From Bordetella parapertussis (GTDB taxonomy: Bacteria > Pseudomonadota > Gammaproteobacteria > Burkholderiales > SG8-41): a stretch of 64,000 bases of DNA. A program made the translations under genes and the position numbers. The stretch covers positions 4,992 through 68,991 of the forward strand of contig CAMBCF010000005.1 of the NCBI GenBank assembly GCA_945864585.1, written 5' to 3'. Shown here piece by piece: positions 10,914-53,474 of the stretch; the first letter of the stretch is position 1; each line of letters opens with the position of its first letter. The notes below the pieces were generated by a model. That model was not told where the DNA came from and did no database searches. It saw nothing but the letters and a program-made list of their open reading frames with translations.

Positions 10914-11606
10914 CTACTCGGCGCTTATACCCGCCTGCTTGGCGATACGGCTCCACTTCGCGAGATCGTTGATGATGAGTTCGCCAAATGCTTTCGGCGT
11001 GGCGACCACCGGCTCGGCGGCTTCAGCGGACAGGCGCTTGGCCATATCCGGGTCGCGCAGGATCGCGTTGATCTCGCCGTTGAGCTTCATCACGATCGGT
11101 CCCGGCACACCCGCAGGCGCGAGTATGCCCCACCAAATCGCGCCGTCGTAGCCCGGCACGCCGATCTCGGAAACGGTCAGTAAATCCGGCAAAAGCGGAG
11201 AACGTTTGGCCGAGCCGACGCCGAGTGGCTTGAGTTTGCCTGAACGTATATGCGGCAGCGCCTGGATCAGCGTGCCGAACAGCACCTTGACCTGTCCCGT
11301 CATCACATCGAGCATCGAGGTCCCGCCGCCTTTGTAGGGAATATGTGCAAGCTTGACACCGGCGAGCATGTTGAATAGTTCACCGCCGAAATGGTTGAAT
11401 CCGCCGATACCGGACGATGCGTAGCGGATTTGCCCCGGTTTGCCTTTTGCCAACGCGACCAGATCCTTTATGGTCTTCGCCGGGAAGCTCGGGTGCGTGG
11501 CAATGGCGTTCCCGCCCGACGCAATCTGCGCGATGGGGATCAGCGACTTCAGCGGGTCGTAGGGCAGCTTGTGTACTGCGGGATTCATCGTATAAGTCGT
11601 TGACAC
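10914..11606 (-). pseudogene. Bug/TctC-family receptor, 5'-truncated (lacks signal peptide and about 95 N-terminal residues)
   Basis: 230 aa starting in mid-family (..LPYDPLKSLIPIAQI..KDLVALAKGKPGQIRYASSGIGGFNH..HIPYKGGG..); no signal peptide or YP.KP..VVPF..GG segment upstream. Confidence 0.7.
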
Positions 11607-44863: not shown

Positions 44864-44973
44864 GATGCGTTACTCCTTGCTTGATTTTTTGCGGGTGACC
44901 ATGGTGCAGATGTAGCGGAAGCGCGATCAAACGTGTGCATGAATTTTTTTTGCGCCACGCGCGGGCTACCGGC

Positions 44974-45002
44974 AATGTATCGCCGGCTCGGCCAGCGGTC
45001 AA
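44974..45002 (-). promoter_or_regulatory. recurring promoter module, copy F (TTGACC-17-TACATT)
   Basis: Minus strand: gcGGTTGACC 45002-44997, 17-nt spacer, TACATT 44979-44974; 111 nt upstream of the SMP-30 ATG. Confidence 0.45.
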
Positions 45003-45041
45003 CCGCGCACAAGTTCAAGCGCGTGCGCCACAGCGCGCAGG

Positions 45042-45605
45042 CTACCTGTGCAAGCGGCTCGTACGCGGTACCCCAATGAGCAAGTATTCCATTTGATCCG
45101 CCAGGATGTTTCGGTTCCGCAGGATAAAGTGCTCGTGCCTGGAGGGCGTGTAAGGCACATAAAGCAGCGGCATGCGCGCCTGCTCTGGCGTGCGATCCGC
45201 CTTTCTCCCGTTACAGGCCCGACACGCTGTGACCACATTCATCCAAACGTGCTTCCCGCCCCTTGAAACCGGTATCACGTGGTCGCATGAGAGTTCGCGG
45301 GTAGCAAAACGATTACCGCAATACGCGCACAGATGACGATCACGCGCGTAGAGCAGGTCATTGCCCAGCACCGGCACGCGCGCGAGCAAGCGTCCGGCAT
45401 GGCCCGCTCCACGCAGCGCCAAAATCGATTGCGTTTCAATACGTGAACGACGTCCATCGCGTTGCGTGCCGCCACGGTATTCGCAGACGCGGTTACCCGC
45501 CGACCAGGCCACAAGCTGCTTGGCGTGATACGTGATCGCCTCTTCGATACCCACCCAGGCCTGTGGCAGACCAGCCTGGTCCAGCATCAGAATCAATGTT
45601 TGCAT
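45042..45605 (-). CDS. HNH endonuclease
   Basis: 187 aa; ..CAYCGNRF...LSCDHVIPVSRGGKHVWMNVVTACRACNGRKADR.. Confidence 0.85.
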   Translation of the reverse strand: MQTLILMLDQAGLPQAWVGIEEAITYHAKQLVAWSAGNRVCEYRGGTQRDGRRSRIETQSILALRGAGHAGRLLARVPVLGNDLLYARDRHLCAYCGNRFATRELSCDHVIPVSRGGKHVWMNVVTACRACNGRKADRTPEQARMPLLYVPYTPSRHEHFILRNRNILADQMEYLLIGVPRTSRLHR

Positions 45606-45752
45606 TATTTTATCTCGTAACTATAACCGGTCGGCCGCTCTCACCGCCGACCAGTTTTGTTGCTATTGCGTAATTTGACATCGTTATGGACAATGTGTTC
45701 TACGACGAATTCTGCCTGCCGTTTCCGGCAAGACTGGATGTGGTTTACAGGT

Positions 45753-45831
45753 TGGTACCGTCGGCAGGACTCGAACCCGCATCCTCCGCGTTCGAAGCGC
45801 GGCACTCTGGTTCCAATTGAGTTACGGCGGT
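45753..45831 (-). tRNA. tRNA-Arg (anticodon UCG), CCA encoded; atypical A1-U72 and C5-A68 mismatch
   Basis: Hand-folded: ACCGCCG TA ACTC..GAGT G CCGCG CTTCGAA CGCGG AGGAT GCGGG TTCGAGT CCTGC CGACGGT A CCA. Confidence 0.7.
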
Positions 45832-45843
45832 GCAAATCTGAAT

Positions 45844-45918
45844 TGGTAGGCCCTGCAGGAATCGAACCTGCCTAATGCGGATTAAAAGTCCGCTGCCTCG
45901 CCAATCGGCCAAGGACCT
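45844..45918 (-). tRNA. tRNA-Lys (anticodon UUU), CCA encoded; A1-U72
   Basis: Hand-folded: AGGTCCT..GCGGA CTTTTAA TCCGC ATTAG GCAGG TTCGATT CCTGC AGGGCCT A CCA. Confidence 0.75.
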
Positions 45919-45928
45919 GAATTGATAG

Positions 45929-46005
45929 TGGGGTGACCGACGCGATTCGAACGCGCACCCGCTTGGTTCACAGCCAAGCACTCTGCCAGTTAAGCTACGA
46001 CCACC
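45929..46005 (-). tRNA. tRNA-His (anticodon GUG) with encoded G-1 opposite C73, CCA encoded
   Basis: Hand-folded: G-GTGGTCG TA GCTT..CTTGG CTGTGAA CCAAG CGGGT GCGCG TTCGAAT CGCGT CGGTCAC C CCA. Confidence 0.8.
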
Positions 46006-46017
46006 ATCGATAAAAAT

Positions 46018-46095
46018 TGGCTCCGGCCAGTGGAATCGAACTACTCTCATTCGCCGTTAACAGCGGCGCGCTTTCACCTTGAAAGCCAGACCGGA
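46018..46095 (-). tRNA. tRNA-Asn (anticodon GUU), CCA encoded
   Basis: Hand-folded: TCCGGTC TG GCTT TCAAGGTGA AAGC G CGCCG CTGTTAA CGGCG..TTCGATT..GGCCGGA G CCA; U1-A72 and G73 as in E. coli tRNA-Asn; starts 8 nt after the rtcB stop. Confidence 0.75.
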
Positions 46096-46103
46096 AACTA
46101 TGC

Positions 46104-46409
46104 CTACCCCTTCACGCACAGCACCTGTTTCAGGGTATGCACGATTTCGACGAGATCCGATTGCGCCGCCATCACGTCATCGATGGACTTGTACGCGCCC
46201 GGAATCTCATCAATCACACCGCTGTCCTTGCGATATTCCACACCAGCGGTTTGCTGTGCCAGGTCCGCTTGCGAGTAGCGGCGCCTGGCTTCACCCCGGC
46301 TCATGCGGCGCCCCGCGCCATGCGAACATGAGGCATACGCGTCAGCGTGCCCCTTGCCCTTCACGATGTAGGACTTCACTCCCATGCTGCCAGGGATGAT
46401 GCCAAGCGC
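46104..46409 (-). pseudogene. rtcB: RNA ligase RtcB, 3'-terminal remnant (about last 100 codons)
   Basis: ..LGIIPGSMGVKSYIVKGKG..SCSHGAGRRMSR..IDEIPGAYKSIDDVMAAQSDLVEIVHTLKQVLCVKG closely resembles the E. coli RtcB C-terminus; upstream the frame dissolves into the Bug fragment in another frame. Confidence 0.8.
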
Positions 46410-46885
46410 ACGATCAGCTCCCTGGCGGATTTGGCGGGAACCGACGGGTGGGCCACCAGCAGCATACAGGTGTGCACGAGAAACGCCACCGGCGCCAGAT
46501 CGACGAGCGGGTCATAGTTGAGTTTCAGCAGATGGGGGTTGATCACGATCTGTCCCAAGGTGGCGAACACCAGGGTATGACCGTCTGGCGGCGATTTGGC
46601 GGTCAGCTCCACCGCGATCGAGCCCGATGCGCCGGAACGATGCTCGATGATCACAGGTTGTTTCCAGGTTTCGTTCAGTTTTTGCGAGACCATGCGCGCA
46701 AACAGATCGGTCGCACCACCCGGCGGCTGTCCTGAGAGAATGCGTACCGGTTTGGACGGATACGCTTGACCCAGTGCTGCGCTACCGTGCGTAAGCAGCG
46801 CGCACATCGCTAGTACGCTCACGATCACACTGATTAATCGCGAGGCAGAATCCAACCCAGCTACATTCTGAGACGAAGTTTTCAT
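46376..46885 (-). pseudogene. Bug/TctC-family receptor, N-terminal half only (3'-truncated at junction with the rtcB remnant)
   Basis: 169 aa: signal peptide, YPSKPVRILSGQPPGGATD..EHRSGASGSIA..AHPSVPAKSARELI then unrelated tail and stop; family continues about 160 aa further in intact paralogs. Confidence 0.7.
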
Positions 46886-46891
46886 CTTGAC

Positions 46892-47159
46892 TAGGGCCTG
46901 TTAACAATTAATTCGTGAGATGCGTTGCTGTCCCAATCGTCGCTGGCAAGGCGCTTGCCGCAGGCAATATCGCGAATATTGCCAAGGCAAGCAACGCAGC
47001 AAGCGGCGATTGGGGCAGCAACCCGTAGGGCCAGGGCGATTGGGCGGTAGATAGCACAGTTTCCTTGATACGCCACAGCGATATGATTTCCATCGGCTCT
47101 TTATTTACCAAACCCAATCGTCCCTGGCGCGCTCGCGAATTAATTGTTAACAGGCCCTG
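46892..47159. mobile_element. MITE-like 268-bp element bounded by 23-24-bp terminal inverted repeats
   Basis: TAGGGCCTGTTAACAATTAATTCG (46892-46915) and its reverse complement CGAATTAATTGTTAACAGGCCCT (47136-47158); non-coding interior with sub-hairpins (e.g. GGCAATAT-cgcga-ATATTGCC); no target duplication recognised. Confidence 0.55.
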
Positions 47160-51639: not shown

Positions 51640-52818
51640 TCAAACGGCCCACGGCAGCCCAACGTAGTTCTCCGCGAGGGTTGTGGCGGCGGCCCGCGAG
51701 CTTATGACGTATTCGAGCTGTGAGCGCTGCAGGCGCTGCTGGAACGCGTCGTCCTCCGGGAAACGGTGCAGCATGGAAGTCATCCACCACGAGAAATGCT
51801 CCACCCGCCAGACACGTTTCAGGCAGGTCGCGGAATAGGCATCAAGGAGCTCACTGCGCCCCGTAGCGAAGTATGCCGCGAGCGCCGGGGCCAGCACCCG
51901 CACATCAGCCACCGCGAGATTGAGTCCCTTGGCGCCGGTGGGCGGCACGATATGCGCGGCGTCACCGGCAAGGTAGAGCCTGCCGTAGCGCATCGGCTCG
52001 ACGACGAAGCTGCGCATCTCCGTGATGTTCTTCGACAGCACCGGGCCTTCGGTGAGCTGCCAGCCGTCGTCGGTCGCGAGCCTCACCCGCAACTCCTGCC
52101 AGATGCGCTCGTCAGGCCAGTTCGCAACATCCTCGTCCGCTGCGACCTGCAGGAAATGCCGCGTGAGCGCCGGCGAGCGCCGGTTGAAAAACCCGAAACC
52201 GCGCTCGTGCCAGGCGTAGACCGTCTCTTGTTCCGGGGTCGCTGCCTCCACCAGGATGCCGAGCCAGCCGAACGGGTAGACGCGCTCGAACACGCTCAGC
52301 GCACCCGCCGGTATCGACGGACGGCAGACACCGTGAAAGCCGTCGCAGCCGGCGATGAAATCACAAGCGAGCTCCACTGGCTCACCGTTCCTGCTGAAGT
52401 GGATGCGGGACGAAGCTGAGTCCAAGTCACTCACGCTCACGTCCTCGACCTCGAAAAGAATTTGGCCGCCTGCGGCAAGGCGCGCCTCAACCAGATCCTT
52501 CACGATCTCCTGCTGGGCGTAGATGGTGTAGGGGCGCCCGCCGGAGAGCTCCTTCAGGTTGAGGGGATGGCGTCTGCCGCCGAATCGCAGCTCGATGCTG
52601 TCGCGGACTATGCATTCCCGCCGCAGCCGTTCGCCGACGCCCGACGCCGTCAGCAGGTCCACCGTGCCCTGCTCGAGCACGCCCGCCCGCACGCGCTGCT
52701 CGATGTAGTCGCGGCTGCGGTTTTCGATGACAACCGACTCGACACCCTGCAAGTGCAGCAGATGCGAGAGCAACAACCCGGCCGGCCCGGCGCCGACGAT
52801 GGCGACTTGAGTACGCAC
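51640..52818 (-). CDS. pobA: 4-hydroxybenzoate 3-monooxygenase, canonical-looking paralog
   Basis: 392 aa; [58 protein letters not shown]. Confidence 0.9.
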   Translation of the reverse strand: MRTQVAIVGAGPAGLLLSHLLHLQGVESVVIENRSRDYIEQRVRAGVLEQGTVDLLTASGVGERLRRECIVRDSIELRFGGRRHPLNLKELSGGRPYTIYAQQEIVKDLVEARLAAGGQILFEVEDVSVSDLDSASSRIHFSRNGEPVELACDFIAGCDGFHGVCRPSIPAGALSVFERVYPFGWLGILVEAATPEQETVYAWHERGFGFFNRRSPALTRHFLQVAADEDVANWPDERIWQELRVRLATDDGWQLTEGPVLSKNITEMRSFVVEPMRYGRLYLAGDAAHIVPPTGAKGLNLAVADVRVLAPALAAYFATGRSELLDAYSATCLKRVWRVEHFSWWMTSMLHRFPEDDAFQQRLQRSQLEYVISSRAAATTLAENYVGLPWAV

Positions 52819-52829
52819 GCGCTGTCCGC

Positions 52830-53474
52830 TTATTCGAGCTTGATGTCGAACATCATCATGACGTGGCCGCCCATCATGTCCTGGAGCGCCGGTGCGGCGC
52901 CCTTGTACGGCACGTGGACGATGTCGGCCTTGGTGGTCAGCTTGAACAATTCCCCGGCGATAGGGCCCGAGCTGCCGACACCCTGCGAGGCGTAAGTCAA
53001 TTCGCCTCGCCTCGCCGTGGCGAGCGCGATCAACTCTTTGACCGATTTCGCCGGCACAGAGGGATGCACCACCAGCACGTTCGGCACGGCCGCCATCAGG
53101 ATGATCGGGCTGAAATCCTTCACCGCGTCATACGGCAATTTGGCGACGAGGTGCGGGAGTATCGCGTTGGTGGCGTGGAATCCTGCGAACAGCGTGTAAC
53201 CATCGGGGGGAGACTTGGCGGCGACCTCGGCCCCGATGATCCCTCCGCCGCCGGTGCGATTGTCCACGATCACCGGCTGCCGGGTCGCAGCAGGCATTTT
53301 CTGCGCGAGCGCGCGCGACAGCAGGTCGGCCATCCCGCCGGGGGCGAGCGGCACGATGATGCGCACCGGCTTGGCCGGATACTCCTGGCCATGTGCCGGA
53401 ATGACAGCCGTGAGCCAAACTACACCTGCGGCCGATACCGCGAGCGCAGCGCTGCCTCGACGAACAATGGTCAT
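52830..53474 (-). pseudogene. Bug/TctC-family receptor, 3'-truncated (about 214 of 320 codons)
   Basis: ORF 52830-53576; from MTIVRRGSAAL signal peptide through ..HVPYKGAAPALQDMMGGHVMMMFD then stop 12 nt before the pobA start; C-terminal about 100 residues absent. Confidence 0.65.

What the first reader, a model, noticed from the sequence alone, without database searches (positions are those of the whole stretch)
45042..46412. Compact tRNA array (Asn-His-Lys-Arg) fused behind an rtcB remnant and followed by an HNH endonuclease
Four minus-strand tRNA genes sit 10-12 nt apart, all with encoded CCA. The first starts 8 nt after the stop of a 3' remnant of rtcB, and an HNH endonuclease gene follows. 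Two of them (Lys-UUU, Arg-UCG) have A1-U72 acceptor ends. Arg also has a C-A mismatch, and a UCG anticodon is uncommon in Proteobacteria, which usually read CGA with the ICG species. These features are more typical of phage or accessory tRNAs than core ones. All four specificities are known targets of anticodon nucleases: PrrC/RloC cut tRNA-Lys, colicin D cuts tRNA-Arg, and colicin E5 cuts His and Asn (with Tyr and Asp). RtcB is the ligase that reseals the 2',3'-cyclic-P/5'-OH breaks these nucleases make. The array may therefore be the relic of a mobile tRNA backup-and-repair cassette. It could instead be an ordinary tRNA locus that served as an integration hot spot, which would explain the surrounding gene wreckage.
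Basis: partly seen in the sequence, partly recalled or inferred. Interest (0 to 1): 0.7.

Follow-up and report, generated by a model that had tools for sequence, protein, structure and literature searches.

The report
Relic of mobile tRNA-repair cassette
Four real tRNA genes, a dead stub of the RNA ligase gene rtcB and an intact HNH nuclease gene are what is left of a mobile "spare tRNAs plus RNA repair" cassette; fuller copies sit in related bacteria, and its nuclease family sits mostly inside phage tRNA arrays.

Summary
Four minus-strand tRNA genes lie 10-13 nt apart: Asn-GUU, His-GUG, Lys-UUU and Arg-UCG. All encode CCA. The first starts 8 nt after the stop codon of an rtcB stub, and an intact HNH gene follows the last.

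This is not a core tRNA locus. Uncultured Burkholderiales carry the same Asn-His-Lys-Arg block, at 82-89% identity per tRNA and with 8 compensatory stem changes, in fuller cassettes. The reconstructed order is rtcB, the four tRNAs, two tRNA-like genes, an SPFH/Band-7 gene and HNH. These cassettes sit in at least six different genomic contexts.

The window copy has two breakpoints:
- At 46407|46406 the first three quarters of rtcB are replaced by half a TctC gene.
- At about 45689 the two tRNA-like genes and the SPFH gene are missing.

The HNH family sits inside tRNA arrays in 71 of 80 viral loci. It is related to the HNH next to the Anabaena long tRNA array.

The cassette combines two described kinds: horizontally spread long tRNA arrays with HNH and rtcB, and the Band-7/tRNA-like/RtcB repair system. 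The repair arm is dead here, while the tRNAs and HNH may still work. Its anticodon-nuclease reasoning remains untested.

The parts
46407..46885 (-). 5' half (about 159 codons) of a TctC/Bug periplasmic binding-protein gene. This is host DNA fused to the cassette at its left breakpoint and is not part of the cassette.
   Evidence: Pfam TctC positions 2-98 of 274. TctC paralogue alignments end at residue about 158. The breakpoint at 46407|46406 comes from the alignment with the rtcB of L252.
46104..46406 (-). 3' remnant of rtcB: about the last 100 codons plus the stop codon. It is a dead gene fragment.
   Evidence: Pfam RtcB positions 319-426 of 426. 71-74% amino-acid identity to the RtcB of L003, L065 and L029. 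About 92% nucleotide identity to the 3' end of the L252 rtcB, through the stop codon.
46018..46095 (-). tRNA-Asn(GUU), 78 nt, with encoded CCA, U1-A72 and G73. The T-stem has an A.C mismatch.
   Evidence: ARAGORN. Rfam 38.4 bits. 85.9% identical to the L249 orthologue, with 4 compensatory pair changes.
45929..46005 (-). tRNA-His(GUG) with encoded G-1 (46005), C73 and CCA.
   Evidence: ARAGORN. Rfam 58.0 bits. 81.8% identical to the L249 orthologue, with 2 compensatory changes. G-1 was read from the sequence.
45844..45918 (-). tRNA-Lys(UUU), with A1-U72, A73 and encoded CCA.
   Evidence: ARAGORN. Rfam 58.1 bits. 86.7% identical to the L249 orthologue, where pair 1-72 is G-C, a compensatory change.
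45753..45831 (-). tRNA-Arg(UCG), with A1-U72, a C5.A68 mismatch, A73 and encoded CCA.
   Evidence: ARAGORN. Rfam 59.7 bits. 88.6% identical to the L249 orthologue, which has G1-C72 and a paired C5-G68.
45691..45752 (-). Conserved trailer of tRNA-Arg (CCACATCCAGT...GAATTCGTCG). It ends at an internal deletion junction at about 45688-45690.
   Evidence: It aligns with the sequence downstream of tRNA-Arg in L249 and L252. From about 45689 onward the window aligns with the SPFH stop codon and the SPFH-HNH spacer of L248, L252 and L249.
45629..45652 (-). Conserved G+C-rich hairpin in the leader of the HNH gene.
   Evidence: RNAalifold on 6 homologous spacers gives an 11-pair stem. Compensatory changes occur at 4 of its pairs.
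45042..45605 (-). Intact HNH endonuclease gene (187 aa) of the family associated with tRNA arrays.
   Evidence: Pfam HNH_5 1.1e-17 and HNH 4.1e-14. Full-length relatives at 62-94% identity. 71 of 80 viral loci and 59 of 80 metagenome loci holding a homologue have at least 3 tRNAs on the same strand within 3 kb. It is homologous to Anabaena All8564 and to the HNH on the Methylibium PM1 plasmid.
44909..45041 (-). Right edge of the variable region: the spacer between the HNH stop codon and conserved host DNA (the SGL gene and its leader).
   Evidence: A contig whose SGL is 94% identical (L245) matches the window only from 44909 downstream and has a different gene upstream.

Best explanation
The segment 45042-46406 is an eroded copy of a horizontally mobile cassette found in uncultured Burkholderiales.

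The fuller order, reconstructed from relatives, is: rtcB (RNA 3'-phosphate/5'-OH ligase), a short operon-like run of canonical tRNA genes (Asn, His, Lys-UUU, Arg-UCG), one or two tRNA-like genes, an SPFH/Band-7 gene and an HNH endonuclease gene.

The cassette joins two described kinds of system:
- horizontally spread long tRNA arrays that travel with an HNH gene and are linked to rtcB;
- the Band-7/tRNA-like RNA/RtcB RNA-repair system.

The HNH family comes largely from phage tRNA arrays.

In intact copies the likely function (inferred) is to keep translation going when tRNAs are damaged or depleted. Spare tRNAs would replace or act as decoys for cleaved ones, and RtcB would reseal 2',3'-cyclic-phosphate/5'-OH breaks with SPFH and the tRNA-like RNA as cofactors. 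The HNH nuclease would behave as a selfish homing-type gene that helps the block spread.

In this window two rearrangements have disabled the repair arm (shown):
- Everything upstream of rtcB codon about 306 was replaced by the 5' half of a TctC gene (breakpoint 46407|46406).
- The tRNA-like genes and SPFH were deleted (junction at about 45689).

What remains is four structurally sound tRNA genes and an intact HNH gene. If the tRNAs are transcribed, it is probably by read-through from the TctC promoter (inferred).
For: Shown by tool results:

1. The same Asn-His-Lys(UUU)-Arg(UCG) block lies in L249-L251, whose HNH is 81% identical, inside a 10-tRNA array followed by SPFH and HNH. It is colinear with window 46096-45703, and homology starts exactly at the 5' end of tRNA-Asn.
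2. L252 (HNH 86%) reads rtcB, a 3' stub of Asn, His, Lys, Arg, two tRNA-like genes, SPFH, HNH. Its rtcB 3' end is about 92% identical to the window stub through the stop codon.
3. L254-L256 (HNH 78%) read ...Trp-Asn-Lys-Arg(UCG)-HNH.
4. A strain whose HNH is 94% identical has a 249-aa RtcB fragment, a 645-bp gap, then HNH, SGL and a CoA-transferase gene. Its upstream neighbour differs from the window's.
5. Contexts differ in at least six loci.
6. Eight compensatory double substitutions separate the window tRNAs from those of L249. No pair that ARAGORN predicts for the window is broken in the window.
7. Breakpoints were mapped at 46407|46406 and at about 45689.
8. HNH homologues lie within tRNA arrays in 71 of 80 IMG/VR loci, 59 of 80 metagenome loci and 16 of 80 genome loci. 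One lies next to the 27-tRNA array of the Methylibium PM1 megaplasmid and one next to the Anabaena delta-plasmid array.
9. Loci assigned to Rubrivivax, Piscinibacter, Caldimonas and Ramlibacter (Sphaerotilaceae and related Burkholderiales) read: array of 5-20 tRNAs, HNH, one tRNA-like gene, SPFH, RtcB.

From the literature:
- Long tRNA arrays spread horizontally, carry a conserved HNH gene, and are co-regulated with rtcB (PMC8421152).
- The TrcR regulon includes the trn array, the HNH gene all8564, rtcB and a slipin gene (PMC10272220).
- RtcB is encoded next to a Band-7 protein and a 'b7a-tRNA' (bioRxiv 10.1101/312249 citing Burroughs and Aravind 2016).
Against: - No fully sequenced intact copy with exactly the inferred order was recovered. 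The rtcB of L252 runs off the contig end, and the closest strain (HNH 94%) has no DNA on file.
- Gene order differs in the Sphaerotilaceae-type loci, where rtcB lies downstream of HNH, so the ancestral order is a reconstruction.
- Only one metagenome contig is available, so other copies of these isoacceptors in the host cannot be counted.
- No sigma-70-like promoter was found upstream of the array. No expression data exist.
- Many close HNH relatives are solo genes without tRNAs, so HNH presence alone does not prove an array origin.
- The function of any part is inferred, not measured.
Confidence: 0.8

Rival explanations
1. This is a core (housekeeping) tRNA operon that attracted insertions. 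On this reading the rtcB stub and HNH are debris from elements that integrated next to essential tRNA genes.
For: tRNA genes are classic integration sites (established knowledge). The surroundings hold truncated TctC genes and a MITE-like repeat. The four tRNAs keep good cloverleaves and their identity nucleotides.
Against: - The rtcB stop-8 nt-tRNA-Asn junction and the tRNA block are conserved in L252 and L249, whose known flanking genes differ from the window's.
- The tRNAs diverge 11-18% between relatives whose HNH is 81% identical. That is fast for housekeeping tRNAs (established knowledge).
- Arg-UCG is atypical for Proteobacteria (established knowledge) but common in HNH-containing phage arrays.
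- No integrase or att-like repeat flanks the block.
Confidence: 0.03
2. The remnant is a still-selected minimal module rather than neutral debris. On this reading the Asn-His-Lys-Arg core is kept because these are the tRNAs attacked by anticodon nucleases (colicin E5 type, PrrC/RloC/PARIS type, colicin D type). The spare copies would serve as replacements or decoys even without RtcB.
For: - The four-tRNA core, or most of it, is the shared part of otherwise variable arrays in the window, L249, L252 and L254.
- Compensatory changes show long-term constraint on structure.
- The HNH gene is intact.
- All four specificities are known nuclease targets (established knowledge).
- The physical link to RtcB points to RNA damage.
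Against: - L252 has lost most of Asn and L254 lacks His.
- Relatives carry many tRNAs that are not known targets.
- The window copies carry two derived stem mismatches, Asn 52.62 and Arg 5.68.
- The anticodon loops look canonical.
- There are no expression or resistance data.
Confidence: 0.2
3. The tRNAs supplement codon usage. On this reading Lys-UUU, Arg-UCG, Asn and His improve the reading of A/U-ending codons that are rare in a G+C-rich host. This would benefit AT-richer mobile DNA, and the link to RtcB would be incidental.
For: The local G+C content is about 55-62%. Two of the four tRNAs have U34 anticodons that read A-ending codons. Codon compensation is the classical explanation for phage tRNAs (established knowledge). 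The HNH family is mostly found in phage arrays.
Against: Long arrays mostly add redundant isodecoders rather than new anticodons (PMC8421152). The repeated linkage to RtcB and SPFH across lineages argues for a role in RNA damage. No AT-rich cargo accompanies the block here.
Confidence: 0.12
4. The arrangement is a metagenome assembly chimera. On this reading the TctC-rtcB fusion and the direct Arg-HNH adjacency were produced by mis-joining reads from different genomes.
For: The window comes from a short-read metagenome contig. Repeated TctC paralogues and tRNA genes are places prone to mis-assembly.
Against: - The identical HNH protein is on three contigs.
- An independent sample has a 94%-identical HNH with the same RtcB fragment-HNH-SGL-CoA-transferase order.
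- Arg(UCG) directly followed by HNH is also seen in L254-L256, from three sources.
- The junctions lie in unique sequence, not inside repeats.
Confidence: 0.04

Closest known systems
[quoted passage not shown]
   Same: - Same-strand, tightly packed, supernumerary tRNA genes with sporadic, horizontally spread distribution.
- A linked HNH gene of a related family. The window HNH is 47.5% identical to the PM1 HNH. Against All8564 it is 48% identical over the HNH core and 34% over residues 1-154.
- rtcB in the neighbourhood or regulon.
   Different: - Only four tRNA genes, against 20-43.
- The run lies between an rtcB stub and HNH.
- It is chromosomal-looking, with no plasmid or phage genes nearby.
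- Part of the unit has been deleted.
Band-7 (SPFH)/b7a-tRNA/RtcB RNA-repair system predicted by Burroughs and Aravind 2016 (known here through bioRxiv 10.1101/312249, and from memory of that paper's abstract)
   Same: Relatives of the window cassette encode RtcB, an SPFH/Band-7 protein and one or two tRNA-like genes directly upstream of SPFH (L252, L249, L003, L051). The simple form occurs in Burkholderia multivorans and Photobacterium.
   Different: The window has lost SPFH, the tRNA-like genes and three quarters of rtcB. The cassette family also carries canonical tRNA genes and an HNH gene. I could not verify whether that paper describes these.
Phage tRNA gene regions with free-standing homing endonucleases, such as T4 SegB (named in PMC8421152) and the T5 HNH enzymes (from memory)
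   Same: An endonuclease gene is embedded among or next to tRNA genes. Its position within arrays varies, and solo copies occur in many contexts, as expected for a mobile endonuclease gene.
   Different: No cleavage activity or target is known for this family. It has an extra N-terminal region of about 85 residues of unknown fold. Here it sits in a bacterial chromosome-like context.
rtcBA/rsr-yrlBA-rtcBA RNA repair operons of E. coli and Salmonella (PMC7790460)
   Same: An RtcB ligase is linked to a tRNA-like RNA and to tRNA damage.
   Different: No RtcA, RtcR, Rsr or Y RNA was found in the loci examined. SPFH appears in place of Ro, and real tRNA genes are included.

Membership tests
tRNA array unit (Tran et al. 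2016, PMC4758250) | At least 20 tRNA genes in the region | tested here: not met
   There are four tRNA genes in the whole 64 kb window.
tRNA array unit (Tran et al. 2016, PMC4758250) | Density of at least 2 tRNA genes per kb | tested here: met
   Four genes lie within 343 nt, 45753-46095.
L-array (Santamaria-Gomez et al. 2021, PMC8421152) | Long same-strand array, up to 43 genes, far longer than accretion would give | tested here: not met
   There are only four genes here. Relatives of the same lineage have 5-10 (L249, L252, L254). More distant ones have 20-27 (L051, L242).
L-array (Santamaria-Gomez et al. 2021, PMC8421152) | Sporadic distribution and spread by horizontal transfer | tested here: met
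   The same tRNA block and HNH lie in at least six different genomic contexts. An SGL orthologue 94% identical has a different upstream gene.
L-array (Santamaria-Gomez et al. 2021, PMC8421152) | A linked HNH endonuclease gene of the All8564 type | tested here: met
   tblastn against the Anabaena delta plasmid hits the HNH gene at 52432-52866, which I take to be all8564. The match covers residues 1-154 at 33.8% identity, E 2e-15. BLASTP gives 48% identity over the HNH core. The 24-tRNA array follows. Homology of the N-terminal part is weak.
L-array (Santamaria-Gomez et al. 2021, PMC8421152) | Silent in standard conditions and induced by translational stress (TrcR-type control) | not testable with these tools
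   There are no expression data. No regulator gene is adjacent in the window.
Band-7/b7a-tRNA/RtcB repair system | Intact RtcB ligase gene | tested here: not met
   Only Pfam positions 319-426 of 426 remain, with the breakpoint at 46407|46406.
Band-7/b7a-tRNA/RtcB repair system | Adjacent SPFH/Band-7 gene | tested here: not met
   tblastn with an SPFH query finds nothing in the window. The deletion junction at about 45689 retains only the SPFH stop codon and spacer. SPFH is present in the relatives L252, L249, L248, L253 and L082.
Band-7/b7a-tRNA/RtcB repair system | tRNA-like RNA gene directly upstream of the Band-7 gene | tested here: not met
   None lies between tRNA-Arg and HNH in the window. 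They are present in L249 (6340-6488), L252 (1425-1576), L248 (22-95) and L257 (5675-5744).
HNH endonuclease (Pfam HNH_5 / HNH) | HNH beta-beta-alpha metal-finger motif with its cysteines, histidine and asparagine | tested here: met
   HNH_5 positions 1-55 of 56 at 64 bits, and HNH at 53 bits. C93, C96, H109, N123, C128, C131 and N132 are invariant in 35 homologues. The PDB entry 4H9D matches the HNH core. The AF2 model is confident only for residues 90-150.
Homing endonuclease | Site-specific DNA cleavage of an empty allele, with copying of the gene into it | not testable with these tools
   Only indirect evidence exists: variable position within arrays and solo copies in unrelated contexts.
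Functional elongator tRNA | Cloverleaf, conserved D and T loop nucleotides and identity elements (His G-1:C73; Asn G73; Lys UUU with A73; Arg C35 with A73) | tested here: met
   ARAGORN folds and Rfam scores of 38-60 bits. Eight compensatory stem substitutions against L249. Identity nucleotides were read from the sequence.
Functional elongator tRNA | Transcription, processing and aminoacylation | not testable with these tools
   No promoter-like site lies upstream of the array. No RNA data exist.

The most novel reading that the evidence does not exclude
The Asn-His-Lys(UUU)-Arg(UCG) core plus HNH may be kept by selection as a minimal stand-alone counter-measure against anticodon nucleases, with the spare tRNAs serving as replacements or decoys. 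More broadly, the Burkholderiales cassette would physically unite the four components that Anabaena co-regulates under TrcR: tRNA array, HNH, RtcB and slipin/SPFH. That would define one conserved, mobile 'translation rescue' module shared by phages, plasmids and chromosomes across phyla, in which the HNH nuclease has a functional role beyond selfish homing.
Probability: 0.15. Interest if true: 0.7.

Novelty: new member of a known kind. Interest (0 to 1): 0.45.

Why it matters
The window copy itself is a decayed relic of modest importance. Its value is as an entry point.

Tracing it uncovered a family of compact cassettes in uncultured Burkholderiales, with the order rtcB, canonical tRNAs, tRNA-like genes, SPFH, HNH. 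These cassettes physically join two systems so far treated separately: horizontally spread tRNA arrays with their HNH gene, and the predicted Band-7/tRNA-like/RtcB repair system.

The same four components are co-regulated by TrcR in Anabaena. This suggests that they work together in rescuing translation after tRNA damage. The small cassettes, such as L252 and L249, would be convenient constructs for testing that idea.

The window also shows how such cassettes erode. The breakpoints fall at tRNA gene boundaries and inside rtcB, while the tRNAs and HNH outlast the repair genes.

Tried and rejected
- **DNA searches.** The whole segment searched against phage and plasmid collections matched only the rtcB part, at about 70% identity. 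Nothing matched the tRNAs or HNH at E <= 1e-5.
- **Empty site.** I looked for one through SGL homologues. The 94% relative (L245) has an unrelated upstream gene, and the 80-81% relatives (L246, L247) have no synteny. No clean empty site was obtained.
- **Whole-genome tRNA count.** This is impossible because the source is a single 68 kb metagenome contig.
- **tRNA comparison with distant arrays.** Against 1,140 tRNAs from distant HNH-linked arrays, the best identities were 72-84%, too low to prove orthology. Orthology came only from the closer relatives found through the protein search.
- **Defence and naming libraries.** PADLOC and NCBIfam gave only generic HNH, HflK-like and RtcB hits. There was no match to a defence system.
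- **HNH structure.** The AlphaFold model was poor (mean pLDDT 56.6) and the N-terminal 85 residues were unresolved, so I ran no fold search.
- **Signals.** The promoter and terminator scan found nothing convincing for the array. The repeat search found no flanking direct repeats or att-like sites.
- **Literature.** Burroughs and Aravind 2016 could not be read, by DOI or by PMC id. What it says is taken from a citing preprint and from memory.
- **Considered and rejected.** A Y-RNA/Ro system was rejected because neither Rsr nor a Y RNA was found: Rfam hits in the window and seven related loci are tRNA only, and no Ro/TROVE domain appears among the genes listed or scanned with Pfam. A prophage was rejected because the window's annotated flanks carry no phage genes.
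Full report
**Observation**

ARAGORN finds exactly four tRNA genes in the 64 kb window, all on the minus strand:
- Asn-GTT, 46018-46095
- His-GTG, 45929-46004, with an encoded G-1 at 46005 read from the sequence
- Lys-TTT, 45844-45918
- Arg-TCG, 45753-45831

All four encode CCA. The gaps between them are 13, 10 and 12 nt. Rfam scores for Arg, Lys and His are 58-60 bits. Asn reaches 38.4 bits, above the gathering score of 29, but was seen only with permissive filters because its T-stem has an A.C mismatch.

The flanking genes are also as described.
- The ORF 46104-46385, and its frame up to about 46406, matches the last quarter of Pfam RtcB (positions 319-426 of 426). Its stop codon lies 8 nt before tRNA-Asn.
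- The ORF 45042-45605 is a complete 187-aa HNH_5/HNH protein.
- Upstream, the ORF 46376-46885 is the first half of a TctC/Bug binding protein.

**Source**

The window is part of a 68,375-bp ENA metagenome contig. The host's full tRNA set therefore cannot be inspected.

**What the HNH gene reveals**

Homologues of the HNH protein were collected from three collections: one genome per species, JGI metagenomes and IMG/VR viral contigs. The number of loci with at least three same-strand tRNA genes within 3 kb of the HNH gene was as follows.

| Collection | Loci with at least 3 tRNAs nearby |
|---|---|
| IMG/VR viral contigs | 71 of 80 |
| JGI metagenomes | 59 of 80 |
| Genomes (one per species) | 16 of 80 |

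Arrays reach 35 genes, on contigs up to about 470 kb. Among named replicons:
- The homologue on the conjugative megaplasmid of Methylibium petroleiphilum PM1 (47.5% identity) directly follows a 27-tRNA array.
- The homologue on Anabaena plasmid pCC7120delta directly precedes the 24-26-gene trn array. I take it to be all8564. It is 34% identical over residues 1-154 and 48% over the HNH core.

These are published long tRNA arrays (PMC4758250; PMC7313664; PMC8421152). PMC8421152 reports that long arrays spread horizontally, that an HNH gene is conserved beside them, and that rtcB lies in their neighbourhood and is co-induced with them.

**Close relatives carry the same block**

A protein search gave HNH relatives at 75-94% identity. 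Their contigs form a series:
- L249-L251 (HNH 81%): Leu-Thr-Gln-Pro-Asn-His-Lys(UUU)-Arg(UCG), two tRNA-like genes, SPFH/Band-7, HNH.
- L252 (HNH 86%): rtcB of at least 324 codons (cut by the contig end), a 3' stub of Asn, His, Lys(UUU), Arg(UCG), two tRNA-like genes, SPFH, HNH.
- L254-L256 (HNH 78%): Arg(UCU)-Met-Gln-Pro-Trp-Asn-Lys(UUU)-Arg(UCG), HNH.
- L248, L253 and L082 (HNH 84-90%): one tRNA-like gene (not visible on the 1-kb contig L082), SPFH, HNH.
- A strain with HNH 94% identical, for which no DNA is on file: a 249-aa RtcB fragment, a 645-bp gap, then HNH, SGL and a CoA-transferase gene. The downstream genes are the same as in the window, but the upstream neighbour is different.

The window block aligns colinearly with L249, window 46096-45703 against L249 5818-6239. 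Homology begins exactly at the first base of tRNA-Asn. Per-tRNA identity is 82-89%. Eight base pairs have changed on both sides while staying paired, six more have changed on one side and stay paired, and no pair that ARAGORN predicts for the window is broken in the window.

A1-U72 in Lys and Arg is G1-C72 in L249. The Arg C5.A68 and Asn T-stem mismatches are proper pairs in L249.

The rtcB stub is about 92% identical in DNA to the 3' end of the L252 rtcB, through the stop codon. After that stop codon L252 keeps only the last 25 nt of tRNA-Asn. The junction of rtcB stop codon, 8 nt and tRNA-Asn is therefore ancestral to both copies.

**Breakpoints in the window**

- Left: similarity to rtcB starts at 46406 (CTTGGCATCATCC...). 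Everything upstream is TctC coding sequence in another frame.
- Internal: the 62 nt after tRNA-Arg align with the Arg trailer of L249 and L252. From about 45689 the window aligns instead with the SPFH stop codon and the SPFH-HNH spacer of L248, L252 and L249. The tRNA-like genes and SPFH have therefore been removed cleanly. Because the closest SPFH-bearing relatives bracket the window in HNH identity, loss is more parsimonious than gain. This is an inference.
- Right: a contig with a 94%-identical SGL gene matches the window only from 44909 downstream and has a different gene upstream.

**Wider family**

In loci assigned to Rubrivivax, Piscinibacter, Caldimonas and Ramlibacter the order is: array of 5-20 tRNAs, HNH, one tRNA-like gene, SPFH, sometimes an unknown 309-aa gene, RtcB; in L051 an HTH gene follows RtcB.

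SPFH-RtcB pairs preceded by a tRNA-like gene, without HNH or arrays, occur in Burkholderia multivorans and Photobacterium. The SPFH and rtcB hit coordinates in B. cenocepacia, B. arboris and B. stagnalis point to the same adjacency. This matches the Band-7/b7a-tRNA/RtcB repair system of Burroughs and Aravind 2016 as summarised in a citing preprint. I could not read the original.

In Anabaena, the TrcR regulon lists the trn array, the HNH gene all8564, rtcB (all3526) and a slipin/SPFH gene (alr0740) together. The four parts that are physically linked in Burkholderiales are thus co-regulated in a cyanobacterium.

**Mechanism**

Shown: the segment is an eroded copy of a mobile cassette, and its repair genes are gone.

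Inferred, for intact copies:
- The tRNAs replace or shield damaged tRNAs.
- RtcB reseals cleaved RNAs, with SPFH and the tRNA-like RNA as cofactors.
- HNH acts as a homing-type selfish gene. Its position within phage arrays varies, and many solo copies sit in unrelated contexts.

In the window the four tRNAs keep sound folds and their identity nucleotides, and HNH is intact. They may therefore still function. No promoter-like site precedes them, so transcription would have to come from the TctC promoter.

**Rivals**

- A core tRNA locus used as an integration hot spot is contradicted by the conserved cassette junctions found in L252 and L249, whose known flanks differ from the window's.
- Selection of exactly these four specificities against anticodon nucleases is possible but unsupported. 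L252 has lost Asn, L254 lacks His, and relatives hold many other specificities.
- Codon supplementation cannot be excluded.
- An assembly chimera is unlikely, given independent contigs with the same junction types.

**Verdict**

The feature is a decayed new member of known kinds: long tRNA arrays with HNH and rtcB, and the Band-7/tRNA-like/RtcB system. Its main interest is that it leads to compact, testable cassettes that join these two systems.

Noticed in passing
window 46893-46919 and 47132-47158: A 27-nt inverted repeat, 96% complementary, with 212 nt between the arms. It lies just upstream of the truncated TctC gene, in a 613-bp gene-free stretch, and looks like a MITE or small non-autonomous transposon.
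   Followed up: no
window 45629-45652 (minus strand): A G+C-rich hairpin in the HNH leader, conserved in six homologous SPFH-HNH spacers, with compensatory changes at four of its 11 pairs. It could be a terminator or attenuator without a U-tract, or a protein-binding site. Its role is unknown.
   Followed up: partly
L249 6340-6488; L252 1425-1576; L003 4091-4233; L258 5662-5803; L257 5675-5744; L248 22-95; L051 6744-6817: Directly upstream of the SPFH gene there is one tRNA-like gene, or a back-to-back pair. The 'anticodon' called for it differs from locus to locus (Ile, Met, Val, Phe-AAA, Lys, Glu, Cys), or the anticodon loop is abnormal (ARAGORN '???'). These are probably the 'b7a-tRNA' of the Band-7/RtcB system. 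The tandem-pair form may not have been described.
   Followed up: partly
Literature (PMC10272220) compared with L252, L249 and L051: The Anabaena TrcR regulon contains the trn array, the HNH gene all8564, rtcB and a slipin/SPFH gene (alr0740). These are the same four components that are physically clustered in the Burkholderiales cassettes.
   Followed up: partly
L259 8001-8246 (Nostoc flagelliforme plasmid pNFSY08): An unannotated fragment encodes the last 82 residues of an SPFH protein, 78% identical to the Burkholderiales cassette SPFH and 75-80% identical in DNA. No tRNA, HNH or rtcB lies nearby. It looks like a stray relic of transfer between phyla.
   Followed up: partly
window 52851-53420 and 10917-11561: Two more TctC/Bug paralogues appear truncated. 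One matches only residues 11-202 of a full-length paralogue and the other only residues 109-323. Broken TctC genes are thus common on this contig.
   Followed up: no
L242 (Methylibium PM1 plasmid RPME01, record 244-249 kb): The 27-tRNA array is interrupted by genes for an HD-domain protein and an AlkB dioxygenase. An ERCC4 nuclease gene and an AAA ATPase gene follow the HNH gene. NADAR and DUF1064 genes lie upstream.
   Followed up: no
L103, L115, L134, L204, L228, L240 (contigs of 360-472 kb): HNH homologues at 52-55% identity lie on very large contigs, some classed as viral in IMG/VR. In L103, L115 and L134 they sit within or next to arrays of 10-35 tRNAs. These may be jumbo phages of freshwater bacteria. 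No RtcB was found within 6-8 kb of HNH in any viral or metagenome locus.
   Followed up: no
L051 8315-9244 and 10558-11283: In the Piscinibacter locus L051 an unknown 309-aa protein with no Pfam, NCBIfam or PADLOC hit lies between SPFH and RtcB; L029 has a homologue. In L051 an HTH_3 (HipB-like) regulator gene follows RtcB.
   Followed up: no
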